A stretch of DNA of 64,000 nt from Parcubacteria group bacterium (GTDB taxonomy: Bacteria > Patescibacteriota > Patescibacteriia > UBA9934 > GWF2-40-263), in assembly GCA_013204395.1 (NCBI GenBank), contig JABMNZ010000026.1, forward strand, positions 13,421 to 77,420, written 5' to 3'. A model generated the notes under the pieces. It ran no database searches. It had not been told where the DNA came from and worked only from the letters and a program-made list of their open reading frames with translations. A program made the translations under genes and the position numbers. Of the stretch, positions 12,780 through 22,254 are shown in pieces. Each line of letters begins with the position of its first letter. Within the stretch, counting starts at the first letter, position 1.

Positions 12780-13217
12780 ATGAAAGCTGTTGTTCAACGA
12801 GTAAAACGTGCGTCTGTTACGGTCGATGGGGAAGTGACAGGCTCGATCGATCAAGGGCTTTTGGTTTTTCTTGGGATCCATCAAGACGACACGGACGAGA
12901 TGATTGAAAAGATGGCTGGGAAGATCGCCAAGCTGAGAATTTTTGAAGATGAAGAAGGAAAGATGTCGCGATCTGTGGAAGATATCGGTGGAAGCGTTTT
13001 GATGGTTAGTCAGTTCACACTCTACGGAGATGTGCGTAAAGGCAATCGCCCAAGCTTTATAGAATCGGCTCGACCAGAAAAAGCCGAACCCATGTATGAA
13101 GCAGTAGTCGAGTCTATTAGAGGTCTGGGTCTTCCAGTCGAAACTGGGCGCTTCACAGCTATGATGGATGTGGAGTTAGTGAACGACGGGCCTGTAACGA
13201 TACTCATTGAACTCTAG
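12780..13217 (+). CDS. dtd: D-aminoacyl-tRNA deacylase
   Basis: MKAVVQRV…GLLVFLGI…SQFTLYGD… hallmark Dtd motifs, 145 aa. Confidence 0.85.
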
Positions 13218-13221
13218 AATG

Positions 13222-13248
13222 ATCTGAGCAACACGCTCAGATTTTTTG
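13222..13248 (+). terminator. rho-independent terminator after dtd
   Basis: atctgagc-aacacg-gctcagat + TTTTTTG. Confidence 0.75.
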
Positions 13249-13331
13249 TACCTGCTCTTTTCAATGTCACGCATCTTCCGTAGGTAAGACCGATGCGTGC
13301 CACCTTGAAAAGCATGCTTTGAAGAATGATT

Positions 13332-13363
13332 AAAATAAAAACCCACCCGCGTTAAAGGGTGGG
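13332..13363 (-). terminator. rho-independent terminator of nadE (minus strand)
   Basis: A-run then cccaccc-gcgttaaa-gggtggg hairpin immediately 3' of nadE stop. Confidence 0.7.
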
Positions 13364-13370
13364 TGGAAGC

Positions 13371-15401
13371 CTAGGTGGCCTCGAGTTCGGCGATCATGGC
13401 GTCCACTTCGTCGACGAAGACCTGAGGGTCGCCGTCGCTGGGCCAGCGCCACTTGTCGTGGGCGCCGAGCCCCAGGGATGCCACCAGCACGGAGTCCGGG
13501 CTGGCGTTCCTCTTGAACTGCGCGAAGTCAAACTTGATGTACCAGTCGCGCATCCACTTGAGAAGGAACGCTCGGTCGTAGATGACGTCGTCGTCCTTCT
13601 CCTTGCGACCAAAGGCTGTCTCAGCCAGGAAGGCCATGCGTCTGGGCTCGGCGCCCGTTCGCATCATATCGTGCATGTAGAAGTCCGTGACGGGGTAGGG
13701 CCCCATCTTGTCTTCAGAGGACTGGATCTCTTCTCCCTCTGCCACCTGCACCAGTTCTGGTGAGATGCGTCGGTTGACGATCCTCATGAGAACCTCTTTG
13801 AGAGGCTCTTCATGGGTCATGTACTCGATGTAGTACTGGACCAGGTACTGGACCAAGGTCTTGGGGATGTTGGCGATGACGTGGAAGTGCGACGACTGGT
13901 CGCCGCCTTCCGTGCACCACCCCTTGGCCGCTTCGCTCATGTCCCCGGTTCCCAGGTTGAATCCCAGGGTCTTGAGGACGAAGGTTCGGGCGCGGGCTTG
14001 GGCATTCTCGCACTGCGTGCACTTCCAGCACGGGTCGTGGCCAGCGGCCTTGAGTGCTGCTGTGGCCAACTCGGTGATGTCAGCCGTGTGAATTCCCGTA
14101 CCTAGTGCTCGGGCCAGGGTGAGCGAGTCGTCCTGTGACTCATCACCTGAGGCAGGGCCTGGAAGCCGGACGCTGGTGAAGAACTGTCGAGACCACCCAA
14201 GGCGGTCGTAGCTGTACACCGTCACCAGGTCAGCAAGACAAGAGTCGAGTCCTCCAGAGAGTCCCATAAATGTCTTGACGGGTTCTCCGTCTTTGCTGAG
14301 GTGCCACAGGCGACCGATGACTCCTTGACCGAGCCCGTTGAAGAGCTCTCTACCCACCTTCTCCATGGCCGTCGGGTCACTGGGGACAAACGGCAGGCGC
14401 TTGAGCTCACGGCGGAAGTCCTTGGTGTCAGGGAACCAGCTGCGCACTTCCGTGGTCACGAAGCGGTAGGGGAAGCGAGCGACACGTTGCGCCTGCCTCC
14501 AGCCATCGTCAGCGTTTCGGTCGTGCATCAGCTTGCCAATGTCGATGTCGCTCACCAACAGCTCGCTTTGGCCAGGCAACATCCAGCGCTTGCTGGACGC
14601 CAGGATGCGACCATCCTCGATGATCATCGAATGTCCATCCCACACCACCGACGAGGTGGAATCACCTGCCTGGATAGCGTAGATGTACACGCTCTTTTGA
14701 CGACCTGAGTTCGCCGGGAACAGCACTTCTCGCCACGTATCCTTGCCCAGCACCCAGTTGGATGCGGACAGATTCACAATGACGGTGGCACCGTTGTGAG
14801 CGTGGCGATCTGCTGGACTTGGCGTTTGCCATCCATCCTCGCAGATCTCGATCCCCATGGTGAACACGTCTTCATATCGTCTGTCGACAAACGGGATCAG
14901 AATGTCCGTCCCAATGGGAACAGGTGTGTCCTGCCACTCGAGCTTGACCTCGGTGGCTTGCAGGTCACACGCGGCGGAGAACCACTCGTTCTCCTGCCAC
15001 TCGCTGCGTCCAGCCAGGTAGCTCTTGGGAATGAACGCGATGACCTGTCCTTGAGAGACAACCGCCGCGACGTTGAACAGAGCGTCCAGTGCGAGGGGGA
15101 GTCCCAAGACAAACGTCGTTGCGATGTCAGCGGTTTTCAAGCAGAAAGTCTCAAGCGCTTCCAGGCAGGCGATCTGTAGACCGCGCTGACGGAAGGCATT
15201 GCGGCAGCCGTAGCCAGAGAGGCCCAGCTCAGGAAAAGCCATGAGCTGGATCTTCTCGGCGTCAGCCCGCAAGGCCATTTCCAGATGGCGCTTGAGGTTG
15301 ATGGCAACGCCCTTGGGCTTTGTCCAGAACGTGGCTGTTGCTACACGAGCAAAGCCGAAGCTGCTTGAACGACCGCGAGCGGTCTGTACTCGTTGGGTCA
15401 T
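13371..15401 (-). CDS. nadE: glutamine-dependent NAD+ synthetase (N-terminal nitrilase/CN-hydrolase domain + C-terminal NAD synthetase)
   Basis: 676 aa two-domain architecture (CEDGWQ catalytic Cys region; SGGLDS PP-loop); AAGGAG RBS; high GC. Confidence 0.85.
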   Translation of the reverse strand: MTQRVQTARGRSSSFGFARVATATFWTKPKGVAINLKRHLEMALRADAEKIQLMAFPELGLSGYGCRNAFRQRGLQIACLEALETFCLKTADIATTFVLGLPLALDALFNVAAVVSQGQVIAFIPKSYLAGRSEWQENEWFSAACDLQATEVKLEWQDTPVPIGTDILIPFVDRRYEDVFTMGIEICEDGWQTPSPADRHAHNGATVIVNLSASNWVLGKDTWREVLFPANSGRQKSVYIYAIQAGDSTSSVVWDGHSMIIEDGRILASSKRWMLPGQSELLVSDIDIGKLMHDRNADDGWRQAQRVARFPYRFVTTEVRSWFPDTKDFRRELKRLPFVPSDPTAMEKVGRELFNGLGQGVIGRLWHLSKDGEPVKTFMGLSGGLDSCLADLVTVYSYDRLGWSRQFFTSVRLPGPASGDESQDDSLTLARALGTGIHTADITELATAALKAAGHDPCWKCTQCENAQARARTFVLKTLGFNLGTGDMSEAAKGWCTEGGDQSSHFHVIANIPKTLVQYLVQYYIEYMTHEEPLKEVLMRIVNRRISPELVQVAEGEEIQSSEDKMGPYPVTDFYMHDMMRTGAEPRRMAFLAETAFGRKEKDDDVIYDRAFLLKWMRDWYIKFDFAQFKRNASPDSVLVASLGLGAHDKWRWPSDGDPQVFVDEVDAMIAELEAT

Positions 15402-15504
15402 GGCGTCTCCTTAGGTCCAGTTAAACGTGAGGGCATGATCAGAGATTTGATCGAGCTCTCGCGTAAAAGCTCGTGCGTACCACGAGCGGGTGGGGACCTG
15501 AGGG

Positions 15505-16155
15505 TCAGGTCATTTCGTAGGACTTGTTGGAGTTGCGATCTCCGGCCGACGCGGCCTGCGGACGCTTTGCTTCGGCCAGCTGCTGCTTCAAGCGTTCGGC
15601 TCGCAGCCACTGGGCGAAGGCGAAGGTGCGCACGCCGTCGTGGATGGTGGTTGGATCGCAGAACACGCTGATGGGCATCCACAGACGGCTGATGTCCTCA
15701 CCTTCATTGGGATTGCCAAGGCCGGTGTCAGGGCCAGTCACCTTTGCTGTGTCGATCCTTGCCACGCTCAGGAAGGCGCGCTCGGTGAGGATGCCAGCGG
15801 ACAGGCTCATGGAGCGCCCACCATTGAGGACGACGACTGCGTCTTCCGTCATGGCCGCACCAGCTTCTTCCGAAGCTTCCTTTACCGCCAAAGCCTTGGG
15901 GCCGAGGTCGACATCAAAGCGCCCGGCGACCGTTTCGATTTCGACACCCGTGGGGTTGTCATCGCGCATTTGCGTCAGGTGCATCTGTGAGATGAGGAGA
16001 ACGCGGTCTCCTTCCAGATCAATCAGCAGGCAGCTGACAGAGTCGGTCACGCGGACCACTTCTCGAGTGTTTCCGCCGCTGTCCAACCAGGATTCCACTT
16101 GGCAGAAGCCGTCGTGGAAGGTGGCCTCATGTGAGGGGGCTGAGGGTTCTGACAT
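15505..16155 (-). CDS. Nudix hydrolase (possible ADP-ribose pyrophosphatase)
   Basis: GGAGGTGA RBS before internal ATG at 16155; Nudix box-like …GPKALAVKEASEEAGA…; longer ORF to 16392 rejected. Confidence 0.5.
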   Translation of the reverse strand: MSEPSAPSHEATFHDGFCQVESWLDSGGNTREVVRVTDSVSCLLIDLEGDRVLLISQMHLTQMRDDNPTGVEIETVAGRFDVDLGPKALAVKEASEEAGAAMTEDAVVVLNGGRSMSLSAGILTERAFLSVARIDTAKVTGPDTGLGNPNEGEDISRLWMPISVFCDPTTIHDGVRTFAFAQWLRAERLKQQLAEAKRPQAASAGDRNSNKSYEMT

Positions 16156-16261
16156 GGTCACCTCCTTAGATACTCTATCTGCTAAGCCGCCGAGCATCGG
16201 CAACTTGGTAAATAGGGCGAGGGTACTTGGTGGGTACCAAGGCCTCGCCGCGTTGTTGGAC

Positions 16262-17563
16262 TCAGACCCTCTGGGCGTGGAAGTAGTCCACATCGTAGTC
16301 GAACACCCGCTTGAGGCGTTCGATGAATTCCGGGTCACCGATCGCCTTGGCGATGTTGTCGGTGAGCTTGCCGGTGGGGTACCAGATGCCATCAGTTCCG
16401 GTTTTGGCGAACCAGGGCTTGATCACCACCGAGCAGGTCGGAAGACCCAGGTCGTTGGTGAGGTTGGTGCCCCAGCCAAAGGAGGTCTTGACCTGGTTCA
16501 GGAACTTGCTGGCCAGCTCGCACATCAATTTGAGGTCCAGGCCGTCGGAGAAGATGACCATCTTGGATCGAGGGTCGATCCCGAGTGCCTTGTAGAAGGC
16601 GATCATCTTGAAGCAGTAGTCCTTGGGGTCTCCCGAGTCCTGACGGGTACCCTTCCAGTTGCGCGCCATCTCCTGCGTGAAGTCACGGAGGAAGGCGTCG
16701 GTGCCGAAGGTGTCGGTCAGTGCGATGGAGAGACCTTCACCGAAGGAATTCCACCACAGATCGAGCAGCTGACGCTGGACGCCAGCCAGGGCGGCATCAG
16801 GATCCTCAGCGGCCATACACAGTGCGGCCATGACCATGACGAGCTGGTGGGCGTTGGTGCCCATGGGAAGCAGAGAGAAGTTCATAGCTGCCTCCACGTT
16901 GGAGGTGCCAAGGAACTGCTCGGGGAGCTCTTCGGCCATTCGCTGATCGATGTACCGCTGCCAGGCACGGTGGAAGCGACGACGTGTACCGAAGTCGCAG
17001 AACATCAGGTACGGGTGGTACTTACGAAGGAATGCGATCTTCTCGTGAAGCCGGCTGACACCTTGAGCCATGGTGGCTTCTCGATCCATGCGAGACATGG
17101 CACGCAGGGCGTTGCGCGAGCGCATGCCGTTGATGAGCGACAGGGCAGGGACTTCCCAGTGCATGCCCCGACCCCAGTTCCCACCAAACGTCAGATCGAA
17201 CTGCCCATCCACAACACTCAGGTGGTAGCCCGGACGCTGTAGGTCGCGGAGATGATCTACGTACGAGGCGGAGAACATGCGTTCTCCGTACTCGTCCGTG
17301 CCCTTGATGTAGTGCAACTCCGAGCGCTGGAAGCGTTGGGCCTGGAGCTTGTCGAGCTCATCACCGAGGTCGTCGACATCGATCTCATCCGCCAGGCGAA
17401 CGTCTGCCGTCCTGTTGGTCAGGCCGTACCTGACCTCCACGTCCGGGAACTCTGTGTGGATCACACGTCCCATGGTGAAGGTGTAGAAGTCGTCGTCGAG
17501 CATTCCGCCGACCAATGGGCCGTCGAGAATCTCATCGATCAGGTTGCCAAAGGGTGCTGACAT
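16262..17563 (-). CDS. pncB: nicotinate phosphoribosyltransferase
   Basis: DFGTRRRF, LPMGTNAH, IALTDT…DAFLRDF, RQDSGDP, FSDGLDL motifs match PncB throughout; GGAGGA RBS. Confidence 0.85.
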   Translation of the reverse strand: MSAPFGNLIDEILDGPLVGGMLDDDFYTFTMGRVIHTEFPDVEVRYGLTNRTADVRLADEIDVDDLGDELDKLQAQRFQRSELHYIKGTDEYGERMFSASYVDHLRDLQRPGYHLSVVDGQFDLTFGGNWGRGMHWEVPALSLINGMRSRNALRAMSRMDREATMAQGVSRLHEKIAFLRKYHPYLMFCDFGTRRRFHRAWQRYIDQRMAEELPEQFLGTSNVEAAMNFSLLPMGTNAHQLVMVMAALCMAAEDPDAALAGVQRQLLDLWWNSFGEGLSIALTDTFGTDAFLRDFTQEMARNWKGTRQDSGDPKDYCFKMIAFYKALGIDPRSKMVIFSDGLDLKLMCELASKFLNQVKTSFGWGTNLTNDLGLPTCSVVIKPWFAKTGTDGIWYPTGKLTDNIAKAIGDPEFIERLKRVFDYDVDYFHAQRV

Positions 17564-17615
17564 GTCTGTCCTCCAAGTAGGTGCAGGTCCTCACGACGTT
17601 TATCGTCGTGGGGAG

Positions 17616-17648
17616 AAATCTGGTCTCGAGTTGCTCGAGCTCAGGTTT
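17616..17648. repeat. 33-bp imperfect palindrome AAATCTGGTCTC-N9-GAGCTCAGGTTT, copy 1 (upstream of pncB)
   Basis: Second copy at 19209..19241 with identical 12-nt arms and different 9-nt centre. Confidence 0.7.
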
Positions 17649-17707
17649 CTTTTTTTAAATAGGTCGCGCCGCCCAGGAGAGAAGCTCCAGGACGGGCGAC
17701 AGAGGGA

Positions 17708-19156
17708 TCACGTGGGGAAGTAGAGTCCACGGATCTTGGCAGCGAGGTTGGTCTCTGGGAAGAACCCGAGGGTCGCCGCGTGGGTGCGCGAGAGGCGCAT
17801 GGAGACGCGGATCACGTCCTCCATGCGGACACGACCGTTGAGCAGGAGCTGCATCGGTCGCTTGCGGGTCGTCTCGATGTCGACGGTGACTTCGTCCTCT
17901 GCGCTCAAGCGGGCGAAGTTCCATCGTTGACCGCGGTAGGTGGTTCCTGCGCCTACGAGGATCATCTCTGGGGTACCGGCCGTCAGGGGCATGCCACCGT
18001 GAGAGCGAGCCCATCCTGTGGAACCCGCTGCTGTGGCGAGCATGAGGCCGTCGCCGGAGAGGCGATCGAAGACGAGGTTTCCGTTGAGGTACACCCGCAT
18101 GGCTCCGCTCTGTACGGATGTGCCATTGCTGACGGCGCGGATGAAAGCCTCGTTGAAGGCGAGCTCCTTGATCTGCCGACCATTGGAGTCTATAGCCGAG
18201 ACTTCCAGCAGCGGTTGCTGGTACAGGTGCACCACTCCGCGTTTCAGACGCGCTTCCAGCTCCGTAATGGTTCCGCCGTTGAGAAGGAAACCTACGGTGC
18301 CAGCGTTGAGTCCGATGGACGGGCGAGGGTCACCAGGGTTTTCTTGGACACAGTCCAGAAAGTATCCATCCCCACCGATGACGATCTTGTGGGTGAGGAG
18401 ACGATCGCTCAGGCCGTTCACTCGGTCCATCATGAGGCCAAGGGCTGTTTCCCGATCGCTGCGTTCAGGATCTGTGCTGCAAGCCACCATGACTTGCGCT
18501 CGGCCCTTCAGCGTGGCGCGGACCGGACCCAGGGCGACGCGGCTGGTGTACAGGCCGTACATGCACATGTAGGCCGCGACGCCCGGAGAGACGAGGTGCT
18601 CGAACTCTTCGTATAGGGCCGCGTTCTCGCGAATCGCCCTGCTGGAAGCTCCACGTGAGAGCCAGTTGTCGAGGAGCTCAGAGTTCGGTGGAAGATCCGC
18701 TTTGTCGAAGTGGACACCTGCTCGTGGAATCACGAGGAACTTGGCGTGGGCCCAGAGCCTCTGACCTTGGTGCCAGTTCTTCTGGATCTCACTTTCCTGG
18801 TCAGCGCCACCAACGATGAGATCACCACCGACCACCAGCCAGACATCATGCCCCTGACTCGTGAGTCGATCGAGTACACAAGCGGACCGTTCGTACTCGT
18901 CACGCTCAAGATCGCTGAGATCCAGGGTGATGCGCGAGTCGCGAGCCTCAAAGGCGATGCGGCACAGGTTGGCGCGATGCAAAGGACTGACGTCCTGTGT
19001 GCTTTCCTTGTCCGGTCGACCTCCACAAGGGATGATCAACAGACGGTCAGCTGAAGTCATGTGGTCCAGAATGATGTCCGCGATGCTCTCGTGATGACGT
19101 CCCGGGGGGTTGAAACTCCCTCCCAAGAAGAATGTACGTCCTTCGGGTTTCTTCAT
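17708..19156 (-). CDS. fusion protein: nicotinate/nicotinamide mononucleotide adenylyltransferase (N-term) + NAD kinase (C-term)
   Basis: N-term GGSFNPPGRHH (H/TxGH) and SSRAIRE (SxTxxR) nucleotidyltransferase motifs; C-term GGDGYFL, NEAFI, DGLMLATAAGSTGWARSHGG NAD-kinase motifs; GGAGGAG RBS before ATG 19156. Confidence 0.7.
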   Translation of the reverse strand: MKKPEGRTFFLGGSFNPPGRHHESIADIILDHMTSADRLLIIPCGGRPDKESTQDVSPLHRANLCRIAFEARDSRITLDLSDLERDEYERSACVLDRLTSQGHDVWLVVGGDLIVGGADQESEIQKNWHQGQRLWAHAKFLVIPRAGVHFDKADLPPNSELLDNWLSRGASSRAIRENAALYEEFEHLVSPGVAAYMCMYGLYTSRVALGPVRATLKGRAQVMVACSTDPERSDRETALGLMMDRVNGLSDRLLTHKIVIGGDGYFLDCVQENPGDPRPSIGLNAGTVGFLLNGGTITELEARLKRGVVHLYQQPLLEVSAIDSNGRQIKELAFNEAFIRAVSNGTSVQSGAMRVYLNGNLVFDRLSGDGLMLATAAGSTGWARSHGGMPLTAGTPEMILVGAGTTYRGQRWNFARLSAEDEVTVDIETTRKRPMQLLLNGRVRMEDVIRVSMRLSRTHAATLGFFPETNLAAKIRGLYFPT

Positions 19157-19208
19157 GATCTCCTCCAAGGGAATGAGTGAGTCTCCATGAACGATTGCTC
19201 CTGGAGTA

Positions 19209-19241
19209 AAATCTGGTCTCAAGCGATTTGAGCTCAGGTTT
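19209..19241. repeat. 33-bp imperfect palindrome, copy 2 (upstream of nadD::nadK)
   Basis: AAATCTGGTCTC-aagcgattt-GAGCTCAGGTTT. Confidence 0.7.
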
Positions 19242-19308
19242 AGAAAAGGGGAGGGTGTCGAGGGGTGCTCGACGACCCGTCCCCGAGATTGTGTGGGTGT
19301 GTTCGTGC

Positions 19309-20130
19309 TCAGCCCACGACGAACTGGCTGGTGTGGGAGAACTTGACGCCGGCGGCCTGCAGCCTAGCGAAGATGGCCAGACGATCTTCCTGAGAGATGA
19401 ACGCCAGGAAGCCGATGGAGTCCATGACCATGTACACCTCGATGCCGAAGCGCGAGAGGTTCAGAGCGGTCAGCATGATGCAGACTTCCAGGGCGTTGCC
19501 ACCGAGGAAGACCCGGCGAACCATCTGGGGTCGCGCGGCGATGCACTCCATCACACCGACCGGGTTGCCCACCGCATCCCAGATTCCGCTGTGGGAGTAG
19601 TGGAGGGGGTGCGTTCCCTTGTAGAAGATGTTGGAGAACAGTCTCGGGAAGATCGGGGTGATGAAGAGGGTCTCGAAGGTACCGATCAAGGCATGCTGCG
19701 CCCAGATGACCTGATCGCTTCCGGTGAACATCCGCGTCAGGCGCGCGTGATGGAGTAGGCTTCCCAAGGAGAACTGCGCGTAGGGCTGCAGGATGTGTTG
19801 CTCACCGATGCGCATCCAGCCTTGGATCAACTCCTCGGTGAGGAGGGTGTGGTTGGGGATGACGCCCGCCACTTCGGTGTAGGCATCGTGACCGTGAGCA
19901 CTGCCTGGGACATGCGCGTCGCACACGGCCAGGCAGTTCTCGCGTTCCATGAGGGTCATGACGTTGAGGCTGTTCAAGGCTGCCTCGAGAGACCCTTCCA
20001 CTGGCAGGGTGCCATCGAGACCAAAGGCGCCCGTGTCGTCGACACTCAGCCAGATGTCCTGGCCGGGGGTGATGTCTACTGGTCCTTTGACCAAGAGATG
20101 GTCTGGGGTAACGGAAAGGGCGGTGGGCAT
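19309..20130 (-). CDS. pncA: nicotinamidase/isochorismatase-family hydrolase
   Basis: N-term …WLSVDDTGAFGLDGTLPV… (D of triad) and …VFLGGNALEVCIMLTALN… catalytic Cys motif; AGGAG RBS. Confidence 0.7.
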   Translation of the reverse strand: MPTALSVTPDHLLVKGPVDITPGQDIWLSVDDTGAFGLDGTLPVEGSLEAALNSLNVMTLMERENCLAVCDAHVPGSAHGHDAYTEVAGVIPNHTLLTEELIQGWMRIGEQHILQPYAQFSLGSLLHHARLTRMFTGSDQVIWAQHALIGTFETLFITPIFPRLFSNIFYKGTHPLHYSHSGIWDAVGNPVGVMECIAARPQMVRRVFLGGNALEVCIMLTALNLSRFGIEVYMVMDSIGFLAFISQEDRLAIFARLQAAGVKFSHTSQFVVG

Positions 20131-20228
20131 TCAAGACTCCTGGGTGAAAGTACTTGCGGCGGTCGCAAGCGTAATCACACTATTTTTAGTGAAATTACGT
20201 CTGTGGCCACATCTCTCAACAAGGCGAG

Positions 20229-20257
20229 AGAATAGTTAATTTTGACGGTTTTGTCAA
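20229..20257 (-). promoter_or_regulatory. sigma70 promoter TTGACA-N17-TATTCT on minus strand, ~95 nt upstream of pncA
   Basis: Perfect -35, 17-nt spacer. Confidence 0.55.
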
Positions 20258-20530
20258 TGATTTATGGATGGATATGAAATGAATTTTTTTACGTGTAAAC
20301 CTCCGTGGGTACGACACATGCACGTAATTGCTATGAGTTAAGTTTTTATCATTTTGTCGGGAGCGCGCTCGGGTCTAGGCTCAAAAGGTCTAAACCCGAG
20401 CCGCTCTCTCTTTCCAGCATCGTACGCTGGGGTGCGGGGAGAGAGGGTCATCCCGCACCTTAGGGTATGATGATGTAGATACTACACTAAGTCTTGGTAG
20501 TGTTTAGGCGGGGAATGATCCCCGCCTATT

Positions 20531-21226
20531 TTATACAACTTGTACGTAGACAAGTTTTCTTTCTTTGAATCGATAGAGGGCTGCTGGCCTATGGGCTTGG
20601 CCGGATCGTTTATGACCGGTGGCCTGGATCAGGTGGAGTTCATTAATTCGTTTTCTGAAGTTTCTTTTATCAAGATCTTGATCCATGACGATCTCGTATA
20701 CACGTTGGAGCTCTGTGAGAGTGAATTCTTTTGCAAGCAGACTCCAGGCGATGTTGGTGTATTGGATTTTTGTTTTTACGCGCTCCAATGTGGTCTGCAC
20801 GATCGTCTTGTGATCGTAAGCCAGGGGAGGGAGCTTGCTCACAGGCCACCACTTAACGTCCAGGTATTTTTCACTGGTCTTTAGTGAGGCATGTTCATCT
20901 GGAACAAGAGCGACATGGGCAATAGAAATGACTCGTCCTGCTGGGTCGCGGTCTGGTTCATCAAACGTCATAAGTTGCTCAAGGTATACCTGAGTGAGTC
21001 CGGTCGATTCTTTCAAGATTCTGCTCGCAGCCTGTTCGCTGGTCTCTTCTTCTTCAAGAAGCCCACCAGGTAATGCCCATTGCCCCTCAAACGGTTGCTT
21101 CTTCATTTGAATGAGCAAGACATGAAGTTCATCATCTTGAATAGAAAGAATGCACGTATCAACCGCGGCTTTAATATTCTGTGGTGATGAGTGATGCTTA
21201 ATCATATTGGTGTGTATTGTACACAA
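20531..21226 (-). CDS. nrtR: NrtR-type regulator: Nudix (ADP-ribose-binding) domain + C-terminal winged-helix
   Basis: Nudix box GQWALPGGLLEEEETSEQAASRILKESTG; C-terminal FTLTELQRVYEIVMDQDLDKRNFRKRINEL… resembles NrtR wHTH; low GC. Confidence 0.6.
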   Translation of the reverse strand: MCTIHTNMIKHHSSPQNIKAAVDTCILSIQDDELHVLLIQMKKQPFEGQWALPGGLLEEEETSEQAASRILKESTGLTQVYLEQLMTFDEPDRDPAGRVISIAHVALVPDEHASLKTSEKYLDVKWWPVSKLPPLAYDHKTIVQTTLERVKTKIQYTNIAWSLLAKEFTLTELQRVYEIVMDQDLDKRNFRKRINELHLIQATGHKRSGQAHRPAALYRFKERKLVYVQVV

Positions 21227-21273
21227 ACTATGGTGGATGTCAAGTCAAAAGAAAGACGCTATACTTTTGAGGT

Positions 21274-22254
21274 ATGAAATTGGAAAGGATTAGCTCTATT
21301 TCTTGGGAAGAGATCTGGCGGCGATGGCGCGCAGACGAAGAAGAAGTCTGGCGAGATCACTATCAAGAAAAGGGACATGATAATTGGGAGAGCTGGCGCG
21401 GTGCGTCCGTGAATAAACATCATCCTGAAACCTGGTCATGGACTTTGTATGCGGCTGATGAGTTTCTCGTCGATGTGCCCGACATGTTTGTGGGGACATT
21501 CCCCGGGTGGAGAACATTTTTTTCAGATCGGGAGCATTCTCGGTTTAAGGACATAGCCGTCTATCCAGGCTTTCTTGGTGGTCAGACTCATGAGAAGATC
21601 GAGTCTATTTTAGAAGACTTCCCGAGAGACATTCAACTCGTGGGAGTAAGATTCGGTGAGGAGATAATGATTCTTGAGTGTACCCACAGATCGACGGCCA
21701 TAGCGGTGGCTGTTAGTGAAGGGAGGGAACTAGAGGCAAAAGTGACCATTGCTTTAACAGAACTTACGCAGAAGCAGTGGAACCAATATTGCAGAAAGTT
21801 TATGTGCATTTCATCCCCCGTGTTTAATCACCAGTCGCTCATTCCATCGCTCTACACCTGTGACGGTGACAATGTAAGTCCACCGCTGGTGTTTAAAGAC
21901 GTCCCGGAGGGTGCGGTTTCATTGGCTCTAATTATCGAAGATCCAGATATACCCGCCTATATCAGAGAGGATGGCATGTGGAACCATTGGGTGGTTTGGA
22001 ACATTTCTCCAGACAGATTGGGAATTGAAGAAGCAGAGGAATCCCCTGGGGTTGTGGGTCTTTCAACACGTGAGGTGAACAAGTATGGTGGGCCCTGCCC
22101 TCCAGATCGAGAACATAGATACTTTTTCTATCTGTATGCCTTGGACTCGATGCTTGAGTTACCTGTAGCTTCTACAAAAGAAGACTTGCTTGGTGCCATG
22201 GAGGGGCATGTGATCGAGCGGGCGGAATTAATGGGTCGCTACGAGCGAAAATAA
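21274..22254 (+). CDS. two-domain protein with C-terminal YbhB/YbcL (PEBP) family domain
   Basis: …LALIIEDPDIPA…WNHWVVWNI…GPCPPDREHRYFFYLYALD… PEBP signature. Confidence 0.6.
   Translation: MKLERISSISWEEIWRRWRADEEEVWRDHYQEKGHDNWESWRGASVNKHHPETWSWTLYAADEFLVDVPDMFVGTFPGWRTFFSDREHSRFKDIAVYPGFLGGQTHEKIESILEDFPRDIQLVGVRFGEEIMILECTHRSTAIAVAVSEGRELEAKVTIALTELTQKQWNQYCRKFMCISSPVFNHQSLIPSLYTCDGDNVSPPLVFKDVPEGAVSLALIIEDPDIPAYIREDGMWNHWVVWNISPDRLGIEEAEESPGVVGLSTREVNKYGGPCPPDREHRYFFYLYALDSMLELPVASTKEDLLGAMEGHVIERAELMGRYERK

What the first reader, a model, noticed from the sequence alone, without database searches (positions are those of the whole stretch)
17708..19156. Unusual NaMN/NMN adenylyltransferase–NAD kinase fusion protein
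A single 482-aa ORF has an N-terminal nucleotidyltransferase with GGSFNPPGRHH and SSRAIRE motifs, NadD-like. It continues without interruption into a full NAD kinase domain with GGDGYFL, NEAFI and DGLMLATAAGSTGWARSHGG motifs. NadD and NadK are normally separate genes. Such a fusion would channel NaAD/NAD production to NADP and is rarely, if ever, annotated. A sequencing-level frame check is needed because the region is GC-rich.
Basis: seen in the sequence. Interest (0 to 1): 0.65.

Follow-up and report, generated by a model that had tools for sequence, protein, structure and literature searches.

The report
NadD–NAD kinase fusion enzyme gene
A real single gene in a Parcubacteria chromosome joins a divergent NaMN adenylyltransferase (NadD) to an NAD kinase inside a vitamin-B3 salvage operon; the fusion occurs in many bacterial phyla but databases label it only as "NAD kinase".

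Summary
Window 17708-19156, minus strand, is one 482-aa ORF with an ATG start and a GGAGGAG RBS. Residues 7-205 are a NadD-family domain and residues 210-482 are an NAD kinase.

It is not a frameshift artefact. About 140 full-length homologues (26-74 % identity) share the architecture, from Verrucomicrobiota, Planctomycetota, Acidobacteriota, proteobacterial MAGs and CPR. AlphaFold models are confident: the N-terminal half matches NadD structures and the C-terminal half matches NAD kinases.

Kinase motifs are about 100 % conserved. The NadD-like half keeps the SSxxIR motif, the P..RPDK motif and the Trp aligning with NadD's PKW, but carries PPGxHH instead of HxGH. Stand-alone GxHH NadDs sit in NrtR-linked NAD loci, so the variant is probably catalytic.

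Here the gene lies in a GC-rich five-gene unit (pncA-like, fusion, pncB, Nudix, nadE) next to nrtR. That unit would convert nicotinamide to NADP.

"Channelling" is unsupported, because NadE acts between the two fused activities. The architecture is not rare in nature, only under-annotated, and I found no publication on it.

Side finding: a covarying two-hairpin leader precedes the fusion gene and pncB.

Verdict: new variant of known enzymes, moderate interest.

The parts
17708..19156 (-). CDS of the 482-aa NadD-like / NAD kinase fusion protein. Identical to NCBI NQV89624.1, 'MAG: NAD(+)/NADH kinase [Parcubacteria group bacterium]'.
   Evidence: full-length homologues
18542..19138 (-). NadD-family nucleotidyltransferase domain (aa 7-205)
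   Evidence: TIGR00482 E 4e-20, end to end. PDB NadD 5db4 aligns to aa 7-205. The AF2 domain model (pLDDT 92.7) has only NadD/NMNAT structures among its top 50 Foldseek hits, TMt 0.80-0.86 for Bacillus and Enterococcus NadD.
19091..19108 (-). Codons for PPGRHH (aa 17-22), the variant of the NadD P-x-H-x-G-H ATP-binding motif
   Evidence: Alignment to NadD GGTFDPIHNGH. G19, H21 and H22 are invariant in 22 homologues. GxHH occurs in about two thirds of 140 members.
17711..18529 (-). NAD kinase module (aa 210-482; N-terminal alpha/beta domain plus C-terminal beta-sandwich)
   Evidence: NF003406 E 2e-31. PDB profile hits 2an1, 4hao and 7mh7 at E about 1e-23. Foldseek to Listeria NADK1 gives TMt 0.76-0.80.
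18365..18376 (-). Codons for GGDG (aa 261-264), the NAD kinase catalytic motif
   Evidence: Read directly from the sequence. Conserved in 99-100 % of 140 family members.
19160..19166 (-). Ribosome-binding site GGAGGAG, 3 nt before the ATG
   Evidence: read from sequence
19181..19244 (-). Two-hairpin leader in the 5' UTR of the fusion gene
   Evidence: R1 hit 64 bits
17587..17651 (-). Second copy of the two-hairpin leader, between the fusion stop codon and pncB
   Evidence: R1 hit 71 bits
19309..20130 (-). pncA-like gene (273 aa), a divergent isochorismatase/nicotinamidase-family protein and first gene of the unit
   Evidence: No Pfam hit. Weak NCBIfam nicotinamidase/pyrazinamidase NF008623, E 8e-6. 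The syntenic orthologues in L087/L088 carry PF00857 Isochorismatase.
16262..17563 (-). pncB, nicotinate phosphoribosyltransferase (433 aa)
   Evidence: Pfam NAPRTase E 1e-51. TIGR01514 scores 293.6 bits, above its 269.55 cut-off.
15505..16155 (-). Nudix hydrolase, YffH/AdpP (ADP-ribose pyrophosphatase-like) type. 216 aa from the ATG that follows an AAGGAGG RBS.
   Evidence: 62 % identical 220-aa orthologue in L001
13371..15401 (-). nadE, glutamine-dependent NAD+ synthase (676 aa; CN_hydrolase + NAD_synthase domains)
   Evidence: NF002730 scores 523.5 bits, above its 473 cut-off
20531..21205 (-). nrtR, Nudix-related ADP-ribose-responsive repressor of NAD genes (224 aa from the internal ATG). 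Its GC content matches the host genome rather than the operon.
   Evidence: Pfam NrtR_WHD E 7e-25 plus NUDIX. NF050029 E 1e-43. GC 0.455.
20229..20257 (-). Predicted sigma-70 promoter of the five-gene unit (TTGACA-17-TATTCT). The sequence ATTGACAAAACC is conserved in L001 and L003.
20471..20490 (-). Candidate NrtR operator TTAGTGTAGTATCTACATCA with a GT-N7-AC core
   Evidence: core consensus from PMC2330246. Conserved in L001, L003 and L087.
21207..21227 (.). Second candidate NrtR operator, a palindrome overlapping the -10 box of the nrtR promoter
13341..13364 (-). Intrinsic terminator after nadE, marking the end of the transcription unit

Best explanation
The ORF is a genuine bifunctional enzyme gene. 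Its N-terminal half is a divergent NadD-family NaMN (possibly also NMN) adenylyltransferase. That half uses a PPGxHH variant of the HxGH ATP-binding motif. Its C-terminal half is a short-type NAD kinase.

In this Parcubacteria chromosome it is the second gene of a single transcription unit: pncA-like, nadD~nadK, pncB, Nudix, nadE. The unit lies beside the ADP-ribose-responsive repressor gene nrtR.

Together the unit would convert nicotinamide to NADP:
- Nam to NA (PncA-like)
- NA to NaMN (PncB)
- NaMN to NaAD (fusion, N-terminal domain)
- NaAD to NAD (NadE)
- NAD to NADP (fusion, C-terminal domain)

The two fused steps are not consecutive. The fusion therefore most likely serves co-expression and fixed stoichiometry, and possibly inter-domain regulation or scaffolding, rather than substrate channelling.

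Shown here: the ORF, the homology and predicted fold of both halves, conservation of the architecture and motifs, and the gene context. Inferred: both catalytic activities, substrate preference, NrtR control, and the reason for the fusion.
For: Real gene and real fusion:
- The exact protein is in NCBI.
- 22 homologues at 31-74 % identity align end to end.
- An exhaustive profile search finds 722 cluster representatives at E<=1e-30. Most of the best 150 are 450-490 aa and cover profile positions 1-466.
- About 65 of the 80 retrieved genome loci contain the whole fusion.

Kinase half:
- GGDG, N284, G286, D369, G378 and S379 are conserved in 94-100 % of 140 members.
- Foldseek TMt is 0.76-0.80 to Listeria NADK1.

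NadD half:
- It aligns end to end with NadD.
- Its own model (pLDDT 92.7) has only NadD/NMNAT structures among the top 50 hits, TMt up to 0.86.
- R176 is 100 % conserved, W128 94 %, P17 96 % and H22 88 %.

The variant motif is probably active:
- Stand-alone 200-229-aa NadD-like proteins with GGSFNPPGxHH lie next to or near nrtR in L072, L076, L079 and L083. L082 has one on a contig with pncB. In L083 a separate short NadK gene follows.
- Where the internal domain has lost its His and Ser motifs (P0084, P0100, P0148), a canonical NadD domain (GGAFDPIHxGH, SSTxIR) is fused in front.

Pathway logic:
- The operon has pncB and nadE but no other nadD or nadK, and none was found anywhere in the 64-kb window.
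- The same synteny occurs in L001/L002 and L087-L089, and at least nrtR plus the fusion are linked in L003, L044, L045, L041 and L025.

Tight fusion: whole-protein AF2 gives pLDDT 90.5 and pTM 0.90, with no low-confidence linker.
Against: - There are no biochemical data for any member.
- Both halves score below curated family cut-offs: TIGR00482 72.7 against 112, NF003406 109 against 211, and both Pfam kinase models are below GA.
- The first His of the HxGH motif is Gly. From established knowledge of the nucleotidyltransferase superfamily, that residue is normally catalytic.
- Some family members add a second, canonical NadD domain. This could also mean that the internal domain is dispensable as an enzyme.
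- The fused steps are non-consecutive, so no obvious kinetic benefit follows.
- Only 64 kb of the genome could be searched for other nadD or nadK genes.
Confidence: 0.7

Rival explanations
1. Only the kinase is catalytic. The NadD-like half would then be a pseudo-enzyme retained as a scaffold or as a ligand-sensing module (for NaMN, NaAD, NAD or NADP) that regulates the NAD kinase.
For: - The first His of HxGH is replaced by Gly.
- NadD-half motifs are less conserved than kinase motifs: G19 and H21 64 %, against GGDG at about 100 %.
- The domain is kept even when clearly degenerate (ISTFDPPSLSD, RQPHELR) in P0084, P0100 and P0148, which implies a non-catalytic role as well.
- pTM 0.90 indicates rigid packing of the two halves.
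- M. tuberculosis NadD has been crystallised with NADP bound (entries 4s1o and 5das, listed), so NadD folds can bind the kinase product.
Against: - G19, H21, H22, S171/S172, R176 and W128 are invariant or nearly so in the 22 closest homologues.
- GxHH NadD-like proteins also exist as stand-alone genes in NrtR-linked NAD loci, where a kinase-regulatory role makes no sense.
- The operon would have a pathway hole between PncB and NadE without it.
- Degenerate copies are accompanied by a canonical NadD domain.
- From memory, eukaryotic NMNATs are active with T-x-x-H. About 18 % of family members carry a Thr at that position.
Confidence: 0.2
2. The fusion supports consecutive chemistry that differs from the textbook route. 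Either NMN goes to NAD and then NADP (an NMN-preferring adenylyltransferase feeding the kinase directly), or NaAD is phosphorylated to deamido-NADP, which NadE then amidates.
For: - A tight two-domain arrangement would suit hand-over of a dinucleotide product.
- The GSFNP and minority TxxH motif variants resemble eukaryotic dual-specificity NMNATs (the resemblance is recalled from memory).
- Substrate specificity cannot be read from sequence.
Against: - The operon encodes PncA-like, PncB and NadE, which is the deamidated Preiss-Handler route through NaMN and NaAD, and no NMN-forming enzyme.
- All kinase substrate-site motifs are those of ordinary NAD kinases.
- To my knowledge no NAD kinase is known to prefer NaAD.
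Confidence: 0.07
3. Assembly or sequencing artefact: two adjacent genes (nadD, nadK) merged by an indel in a GC-rich region.
For: - Unfused neighbouring NadD-like and short NadK genes exist in one Portnoybacteria MAG, L083.
- The locus is a metagenome-assembled contig.
Against: - The same continuous reading frame occurs in about 140 proteins from independent assemblies and phyla, including scaffolds deposited as genome assemblies rather than MAGs (Gemmata sp. IIL30; Gemmataceae isolate CJuql4).
- The junction (aa 200-260) is conserved and modelled with high confidence.
- The tblastn HSP is single and unbroken.
Confidence: 0.01

Closest known systems
Bacterial NadD, nicotinate-mononucleotide adenylyltransferase (COG1057, TIGR00482; PDB 1kaq, 3e27, 5db4, 8aih)
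   Same: - Same fold, TMt 0.80-0.86.
- End-to-end sequence homology.
- Shared motifs: GGxFxP, P..RPDK, HR..M..A, G.D, SSxxIR, and the Trp that aligns with the Trp of the B. subtilis NadD 'PKW' segment.
- Same genomic role between PncB and NadE.
   Different: - HxGH is replaced by GxHH.
- The score is below the TIGR00482 trusted cut-off.
- It is covalently fused to an NAD kinase.
- Activity is untested.
NAD kinase NadK/PpnK, short type (NCBIfam NF003406/PRK04761; PDB 2i2a Listeria NADK1, 1u0t M. tuberculosis)
   Same: - Two-domain fold.
- GGDG, NE/D and DG..(A/S)T..GST(G/A)(Y/W) motifs.
- About 45 residues precede GGDG, as in the short NF003406 type.
   Different: - The N-terminus continues directly from a NadD domain with no flexible linker.
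- The score is 109 bits against a cut-off of 211.
- The nearest eukaryotic relatives are the long trypanosomatid 'ATP-NAD kinase-like' proteins.
Other multifunctional NAD-pathway proteins. These are NadM-Nudix (NMNAT plus ADP-ribose pyrophosphatase, NF003786 etc.), NadR (NMNAT plus ribosylnicotinamide kinase), and the archaeal NADP phosphatase/NAD kinase (NF010678).
   Same: They follow the same principle: two NAD(P)-metabolic activities on one polypeptide, often under NrtR control (PMC2330246). NF010678 and the NF00378x models appear as weak hits.
   Different: The domain pair is different. None of them joins a NadD-type transferase to NadK. Apart from weak hits to their kinase or Nudix parts, there is no homology to those fusion proteins.
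Eukaryotic NMNAT (PDB 1kqn, 1nup, 9rpk)
   Same: - The GSFNP start of the motif and the loss of the first His. The human motif GSFNPITNMH is quoted from memory.
- 18 % of family members have T at that position.
   Different: Profile E-values are much weaker (1e-11) than to bacterial NadD (1e-20). The eukaryotic insertions are absent.

Membership tests
NadD / NMNAT nucleotidyltransferase family (PF01467, COG1057) | Rossmann-like nucleotidyltransferase fold of NadD | tested here: met
   The AF2 N-domain model has pLDDT 92.7. All top 50 Foldseek PDB hits are NadD/NMNAT, with E down to 3e-12 and TMt 0.80-0.86.
NadD / NMNAT nucleotidyltransferase family (PF01467, COG1057) | Full-length sequence homology to NadD profiles at curated threshold | tested here: inconclusive
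   Pfam CTP_transf_like scores 25.1, above GA 21. TIGR00482 gives E 4e-20 over profile 2-194 of 194, but 72.7 bits is below the 112 cut-off. The family profile hits PDB NadD 1kam at 1.4e-20.
NadD / NMNAT nucleotidyltransferase family (PF01467, COG1057) | Canonical (H/T)xGH ATP-binding motif | tested here: not met
   PPGRHH aligns with PIHNGH. The first His is Gly, the Gly is His, and the last His is kept. GxHH occurs in about two thirds of 140 members. I therefore treat it as a divergent NadD-family subgroup and not as a canonical NadD equivalog.
NadD / NMNAT nucleotidyltransferase family (PF01467, COG1057) | C-terminal ISSTxxR motif | tested here: met
   SSRAIR at aa 171-176. R176 is conserved in 100 % and S172 in 84 % of 140 members.
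NadD / NMNAT nucleotidyltransferase family (PF01467, COG1057) | NaMN/NMN adenylyltransferase activity | not testable with these tools
   Inferred only from context: pncB and nadE are present with no other nadD, and stand-alone GxHH homologues occur in NAD loci.
NAD kinase (NadK/PpnK; PF01513 + PF20143) | Two-domain NAD kinase fold | tested here: met
   Foldseek E about 2e-18 and TMt 0.76-0.80 to Listeria NADK1. Matches also to M. tuberculosis, P. aeruginosa and human NADK.
NAD kinase (NadK/PpnK; PF01513 + PF20143) | GGDG motif, NE/D motif and Gly-rich (A/S)TxxGST motif | tested here: met
   GGDG 261-264, NE 335-336, DGLMLATAAGSTG 369-381. Conserved in 94-100 % of the family.
NAD kinase (NadK/PpnK; PF01513 + PF20143) | Score above curated family thresholds | tested here: not met
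   PF01513 scores 22.2, below 25.5. PF20143 scores 20.5, below 23.7. NF003406 scores 109, below 211. The E-values remain highly significant (2e-31), and NCBI itself names the protein an NAD(+)/NADH kinase.
NAD kinase (NadK/PpnK; PF01513 + PF20143) | NAD phosphorylation activity and phosphoryl donor (ATP or polyP) | not testable with these tools
NrtR regulon (Nudix-related transcriptional regulator of NAD genes) | Adjacent NrtR gene with Nudix and winged-helix domains | tested here: met
   PF21906 E 7e-25 plus PF00293. NF050029 E 1e-43. Linkage of nrtR and the fusion is conserved in L001, L003, L007, L025, L037, L041, L043, L044, L045, L049, L059 and L087.
NrtR regulon (Nudix-related transcriptional regulator of NAD genes) | About 21-bp palindromic operator with a GT-N7-AC core near the regulated promoter | tested here: inconclusive
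   Candidate sites lie at 20490..20471 and 21227..21207. The core definition comes from PMC2330246. The first site is about 215 bp upstream of the operon -35 box. Three pattern matches were found (one at 20471-20490, and 21207-21227 matching on both strands) against 0.67 expected by chance. Binding was not tested.

The most novel reading that the evidence does not exclude
The GxHH NadD module and the kinase may form an obligate, cross-regulated unit. One version is feedback of NADP, or sensing of NaAD or NAD, by the transferase fold. Another is a deamido-NADP or NMN-to-NADP shortcut. In addition, expression of this unit in CPR bacteria may be tuned by a previously undescribed two-hairpin leader RNA that recurs before individual genes of the NAD operon.
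Probability: 0.12. Interest if true: 0.65.

Novelty: new variant of a known kind. Interest (0 to 1): 0.4.

Why it matters
1. Annotation. Because the proteins are labelled only as NAD kinase, genomes that carry this fusion may appear to lack the essential nadD step. The fusion occurs in many Verrucomicrobiota, Planctomycetota and Acidobacteriota, in some proteobacterial MAGs, and in CPR. Recognising it may close that gap in metabolic reconstructions. It also shows that at least some Parcubacteria can make NADP from nicotinamide with one compact operon.

2. Enzymology. A conserved GxHH replacement of the HxGH signature in a nucleotidyltransferase is a testable mechanistic variant.

3. Evolution. 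The family shows stepwise domain accretion. There are stand-alone NadD and NadK genes, then the two-domain fusion, then triple fusions carrying a canonical NadD or a CobT-like domain. Its kinase half is also the closest bacterial relative found here of the long trypanosomatid NAD kinases.

None of this overturns known NAD biology, so interest is moderate.

Tried and rejected
- Phage origin: megablast of 13000-21500 against the phage collection found nothing. The window carries EF-G, EF-Tu, SecY and ComEC, so it is chromosomal.
- Known RNA families: the Rfam gathering scan of the window gave 0 hits. An E-value scan of 13200-21300 gave only chance-level hits with E>0.5. No NAD riboswitch was found.
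- The 32-nt palindrome as an NrtR operator: rejected. It lacks the GT-N7-AC core. The distance between its conserved arms varies (16-18 nt, and about 100 nt in L087). Its stems covary. This fits an RNA hairpin and not a fixed-spacing operator.
- My first motif pattern had the wrong spacer and found nothing. It was corrected.
- Internal promoters or terminators between the operon genes: none passed the consensus scan.
- Trypanosomatid NADKs retaining the NadD-like C-terminal subdomain: the profile alignment starts at position 148-167, but pairwise BLAST supports only the kinase half. This is left as a weak lead.
- Literature: seven full-text searches and two papers read gave no description of a NadD-NadK fusion. 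The review I tried under PMC2738131 is not held.
Full report
**1. Observation**

The feature exists exactly where stated, but on the minus strand. The ATG is at 19156 and the stop at 17710-17708, giving 482 codons. A GGAGGAG ribosome-binding site lies 3 nt before the ATG.

A longer TTG-initiated version (504 aa, from 19222) is listed mechanically. The homologues align from about the ATG-initiated N-terminus, MKKPEGR....

- GGSFNPPGRHH, aa 12-22
- SSRAIRE, aa 171-177
- GGDGYFL, aa 261-267
- NEAFI, aa 335-339
- DGLMLATAAGSTGWARSHGG, aa 369-388

**2. Domain identity**

Pfam places CTP_transf_like on aa 11-159 at 25.1 bits, just above its gathering score. It places the two NAD-kinase models on aa 251-292 and 346-451, just below theirs.

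NCBIfam is clearer. NAD kinase NF003406 matches aa 256-475 at E 2e-31. NadD TIGR00482 matches aa 11-203 across the whole profile at E 4e-20. Both score below the curated cut-offs. That may be why NCBI names the protein only 'NAD(+)/NADH kinase' (NQV89624.1, Parcubacteria group bacterium).

A profile of 22 homologues hits solved NAD kinases at E about 1e-23 (2an1, 4hao, 7mh7). It hits solved NadD enzymes at up to E 1.4e-20 (1kam, 8aih, 5db4). Human NMNATs score only about 1e-11.

The AlphaFold model of the whole protein is confident, with pLDDT 90.5 and pTM 0.90, and has no disordered linker.
- The C-terminal half superimposes on Listeria NADK1 with TMt 0.76-0.80.
- A separate model of aa 1-210 (pLDDT 92.7) has only NadD/NMNAT structures among its top 50 PDB neighbours. 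TMt is 0.80-0.86 to Bacillus and Enterococcus NadD.

**3. Not an artefact, and not rare**

The search for homologous proteins returned 23 full-length relatives (454-496 aa) at 32-73 % identity, besides the identical NCBI entry. Twenty-one of these plus the window protein align end to end.

An exhaustive HMM search of 1.84 billion cluster representatives gave 722 proteins at E<=1e-30. Most of the best 150 are 450-490 aa and match profile positions 1-466. By hmmsearch, 148 of the sequences I hold span both halves.

By my count of the record titles, about 65 contain the complete fusion:
- about 31 Verrucomicrobiota (Prosthecobacter, Verrucomicrobiaceae, Luteolibacter, Chthoniobacterales)
- about 17 Planctomycetota (Gemmata, Frigoriglobus, Pirellula), including the non-MAG assemblies Gemmata sp. 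IIL30 and Gemmataceae CJuql4
- 5 Acidobacteriota
- 6 MAGs labelled Gammaproteobacteria
- 3 Myxococcota or delta-proteobacterial
- 1 Gemmatimonadota
- 2 Uhrbacteria

A frameshift chimera is therefore excluded. A 43 %-identical homologue also aligns to the window as one unbroken tblastn HSP.

**4. Are both halves catalytic?**

Across 140 full-length members the kinase signatures are essentially invariant. GGDG is 99-100 %, N284 97 %, G286 100 %, D369 94 % and G378 100 %.

The NadD-like half keeps the family's hallmark positions:
- P17 96 %
- P43, G45, R47 and D49, which form the 'P..RPDK' segment
- R61 and A62
- W128 94 %, which aligns with the Trp of the B. subtilis NadD 'PKW' segment; from memory, that Trp stacks on the pyridine ring
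- S172 84 % and R176 100 %

The ATP-binding signature differs. PPGRHH aligns with NadD PIHNGH. The first His is Gly and the Gly is His, while the last His is kept (H22 88 %). GxHH accounts for about two thirds of the family. TxxH accounts for about 18 % and, from memory, resembles the eukaryotic NMNAT motif. HxGH and HxxH appear in a minority.

Two comparative observations argue that GxHH is a working variant.
- Stand-alone 200-229-aa proteins with GGSFNPPGxHH that end right after the NadD C-terminal helix lie next to or near nrtR in L072, L076, L079 and L083. L082 has one on a contig that also carries pncB. In L083 the NadD-like gene is followed about 640 bp downstream by a separate 262-aa NadK and then by pncB.
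- In P0084, P0100 and P0148 the internal domain has lost its His and Ser motifs (ISTFDPPSLSD, IGSFDPPTSAQ, RQPHELR). In these proteins a canonical NadD domain (GGAFDPIHxGH, SSTxIR) is fused in front.

The second observation cuts both ways. It also shows the domain is retained when inactive, so it has a structural or regulatory role as well. I put about 70 % on both halves being active here, and about 20 % on a kinase with a non-catalytic NadD-like module.

**5. Context and proposed working**

All neighbours are on the minus strand. In transcription order they are:
- nrtR (20531-21205), with Nudix and NrtR winged-helix domains
- a divergent isochorismatase/nicotinamidase-like gene (19309-20130)
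- the fusion gene
- pncB (16262-17563), above the TIGR01514 cut-off
- a YffH/AdpP-type Nudix gene (15505-16155)
- glutamine-dependent nadE (13371-15401), above the NF002730 cut-off

A consensus scan finds one good promoter in front of the pncA-like gene (20257..20229) and one terminator after nadE (13364..13341). No internal signals passed the scan. I therefore read the five genes as one transcription unit.

Candidate NrtR operators with the GT-N7-AC core described by Rodionov et al. (PMC2330246) lie at 20490..20471 and, overlapping the nrtR -10 box, at 21227..21207.

No other NadD or NadK homologue is found in the 64-kb window.

The unit thus encodes nicotinamide to NA to NaMN to NaAD to NAD to NADP, with the fusion supplying the third and fifth steps. 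Co-expression, fixed stoichiometry, or inter-domain regulation are more plausible reasons for the fusion, but these are inference only.

The same operon occurs in the 72-73 %-identical loci L001/L002 and L087-L089. Variants occur elsewhere:
- a radical-SAM gene is inserted in L001, L002, L003 and L087-L089
- nadE is a short type in L087
- IU-nucleoside hydrolase and Prs are added in L003, and IU-nucleoside hydrolase and ADP-ribosylglycohydrolase in L091

In Planctomycetota and Verrucomicrobiota the fusion is a solitary gene with no NAD genes within 8-10 kb. It could be the housekeeping enzyme there.

**6. Comparison with what is known**

The closest families are bacterial NadD and short-type NadK. 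The protein is homologous to both but fails the curated thresholds of both, and it fails the canonical HxGH test. I therefore call it a divergent NadD-family module fused to an NAD kinase, and not a canonical NadD equivalog.

Other NAD-pathway fusions join different partners: NadM-Nudix, NadR, and the archaeal NADP phosphatase/NAD kinase.

Public labels do not flag the fusion, with one exception:
- NCBI: 'NAD(+)/NADH kinase'
- UniRef, for the Gemmata proteins: 'Uncharacterized protein' and 'nicotinate-nucleotide--dimethylbenzimidazole phosphoribosyltransferase'
- one IMG product name: 'NAD kinase/nicotinic acid mononucleotide adenylyltransferase'; I take this two-part name to be automatic, but that is my inference

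Seven full-text searches and two papers gave no description of the architecture. This is absence from the searchable library, not proof that it has never been published.

**7. Things noticed beyond the finding**

(a) A two-hairpin leader precedes the fusion gene (19244..19181) and pncB (17651..17587).
- Its arms, AAACCTG and CCAGATT, are identical in both window copies and in L001 and L087.
- In L091, where the fusion protein is 44 % identical, three copies have a covarying outer stem. GAAAcCUG/CAGaUUUC becomes AGAGAcCUG/CAGaUCUCU, and the C.A mismatch is kept.
- 12 of 20 consensus pairs show compensatory changes over seven copies.
- A covariance model finds it only in NAD-operon spacers across 612 kb. 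One new hit (E 0.013, rough calibration) lies just upstream of the fusion gene in L025.
- Rfam has no match.

(b) The five-gene unit is a GC island, with GC 0.60 and GC3 0.70-0.82. The adjacent nrtR has GC 0.455 and the flanks 0.46-0.50. The same contrast recurs in relatives whose fusion proteins are only 43-73 % identical. I cannot explain this.

(c) Gemmata carries a triple fusion: a CobT-like phosphoribosyltransferase, a NadD-like domain and NadK (P0094, WP_162271905.1).

(d) The kinase half is the closest bacterial relative found here of the 736-804-aa trypanosomatid NAD kinases, at 33 % identity over 228 aa.

**8. Verdict**

This is a correct and well-spotted observation of a real, conserved, under-annotated bifunctional architecture with an unusual catalytic motif. 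It extends known NAD enzymology without challenging it.

Interest 0.40; novelty: new variant of a known kind.

Noticed in passing
window 19181-19244 (-) and 17587-17651 (-); L001 9910-9974 and 11530-11594; L091 2577-2636, 4131-4186, 5368-5430; L087 3273-3330 and 4860-4924; L025 9865-9933: A conserved two-hairpin leader sits in the spacers before the fusion gene and pncB (and before an ADP-ribosylglycohydrolase gene in L091). Hairpin A has invariant arms AAACCUG/CCAGAUU, a conserved C.A mismatch and a free inner stem. Hairpin B lies just before the RBS. Twelve of 20 pairs show compensatory changes over 7 copies. A CM search of 612 kb finds it only in NAD-operon spacers. There is no Rfam match. 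It may be a new cis-regulatory or processing RNA.
   Followed up: partly
window ~13371-20130 versus the rest; L001, L003, L087, L091: The five NAD genes form a GC island (GC 0.60, GC3 0.70-0.82). The adjacent nrtR (0.455) and the flanks (0.46-0.50) have host-like composition. The same operon-versus-nrtR contrast persists in relatives whose fusion proteins are only 43-73 % identical. Possible causes are repeated cassette exchange or compositional selection. This is unexplained.
   Followed up: partly
window 20471-20490 (-) and 21207-21227: Two candidate NrtR operators carry the GT-N7-AC core. One lies just after the nrtR terminator, about 215 bp upstream of the operon -35 box. The other is palindromic and overlaps the -10 box of the nrtR promoter, which suggests autoregulation. 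Equivalent sites are present in L001, L003 and L087.
   Followed up: partly
P0094 (Gemmata sp. SH-PL17, WP_162271905.1, 779 aa), P0183 (Gemmata massiliana, 797 aa): A triple fusion: an N-terminal CobT-like DBI_PRT phosphoribosyltransferase domain (a family whose substrate is NaMN), then a NadD-like domain with a TTYH motif, then NAD kinase. RefSeq and UniRef name it after CobT only, or leave it uncharacterised.
   Followed up: partly
P0084, P0100, P0148 (633-763 aa): A canonical NadD domain (GGAFDPIHxGH, SSTxIR) is fused in front of a degenerate copy of the family's NadD-like domain plus the kinase. The internal domain is therefore kept even when its catalytic motifs are lost.
   Followed up: partly
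P0025-P0027, P0172 (Trypanosoma, 736-804 aa); P0173 (1267 aa): Long trypanosomatid 'ATP-NAD kinase-like' proteins are the best eukaryotic hits of this bacterial fusion family. Identity is 33 % over the kinase half. The profile alignment starts inside the NadD-like domain, at positions 148-167. A 'LDPPTVQH' string near the N-terminus of P0026 resembles the family's PPTxxH variant, but it is not significant on its own.
   Followed up: partly
L083 2401-3033 and 3677-4465 (Portnoybacteria); L072, L076, L079, L082: Unfused forms exist. Stand-alone GxHH NadD-like genes of 200-229 aa lie next to or near nrtR. In L083 a separate 262-aa short NadK lies about 640 bp downstream, just before pncB. This is a plausible precursor, or a fission product, of the fusion.
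   Followed up: partly
window 19309-20130 (-): The first gene of the unit (273 aa) has no Pfam hit and only a weak NCBIfam nicotinamidase/pyrazinamidase match over its C-terminal half (E 8e-6). Its syntenic orthologues carry an Isochorismatase domain. It is probably a very divergent PncA with an N-terminal extension of about 130 aa.
   Followed up: partly
L001 12991-14061; L003 13431-14444; L087 6339-7391: A radical-SAM gene (337-356 aa) sits between pncB and the Nudix gene in related NAD operons but is absent from the window. nadE is also swapped among relatives: a long Gln-type in the window and L001 (only 38 % identical to each other), and a short 272-aa type in L087.
   Followed up: no
window 21274-22254 (+): A 326-aa protein is transcribed divergently from nrtR. 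It has a C-terminal PEBP (phosphatidylethanolamine-binding protein) domain at aa 190-323 and an unassigned N-terminal half.
   Followed up: no
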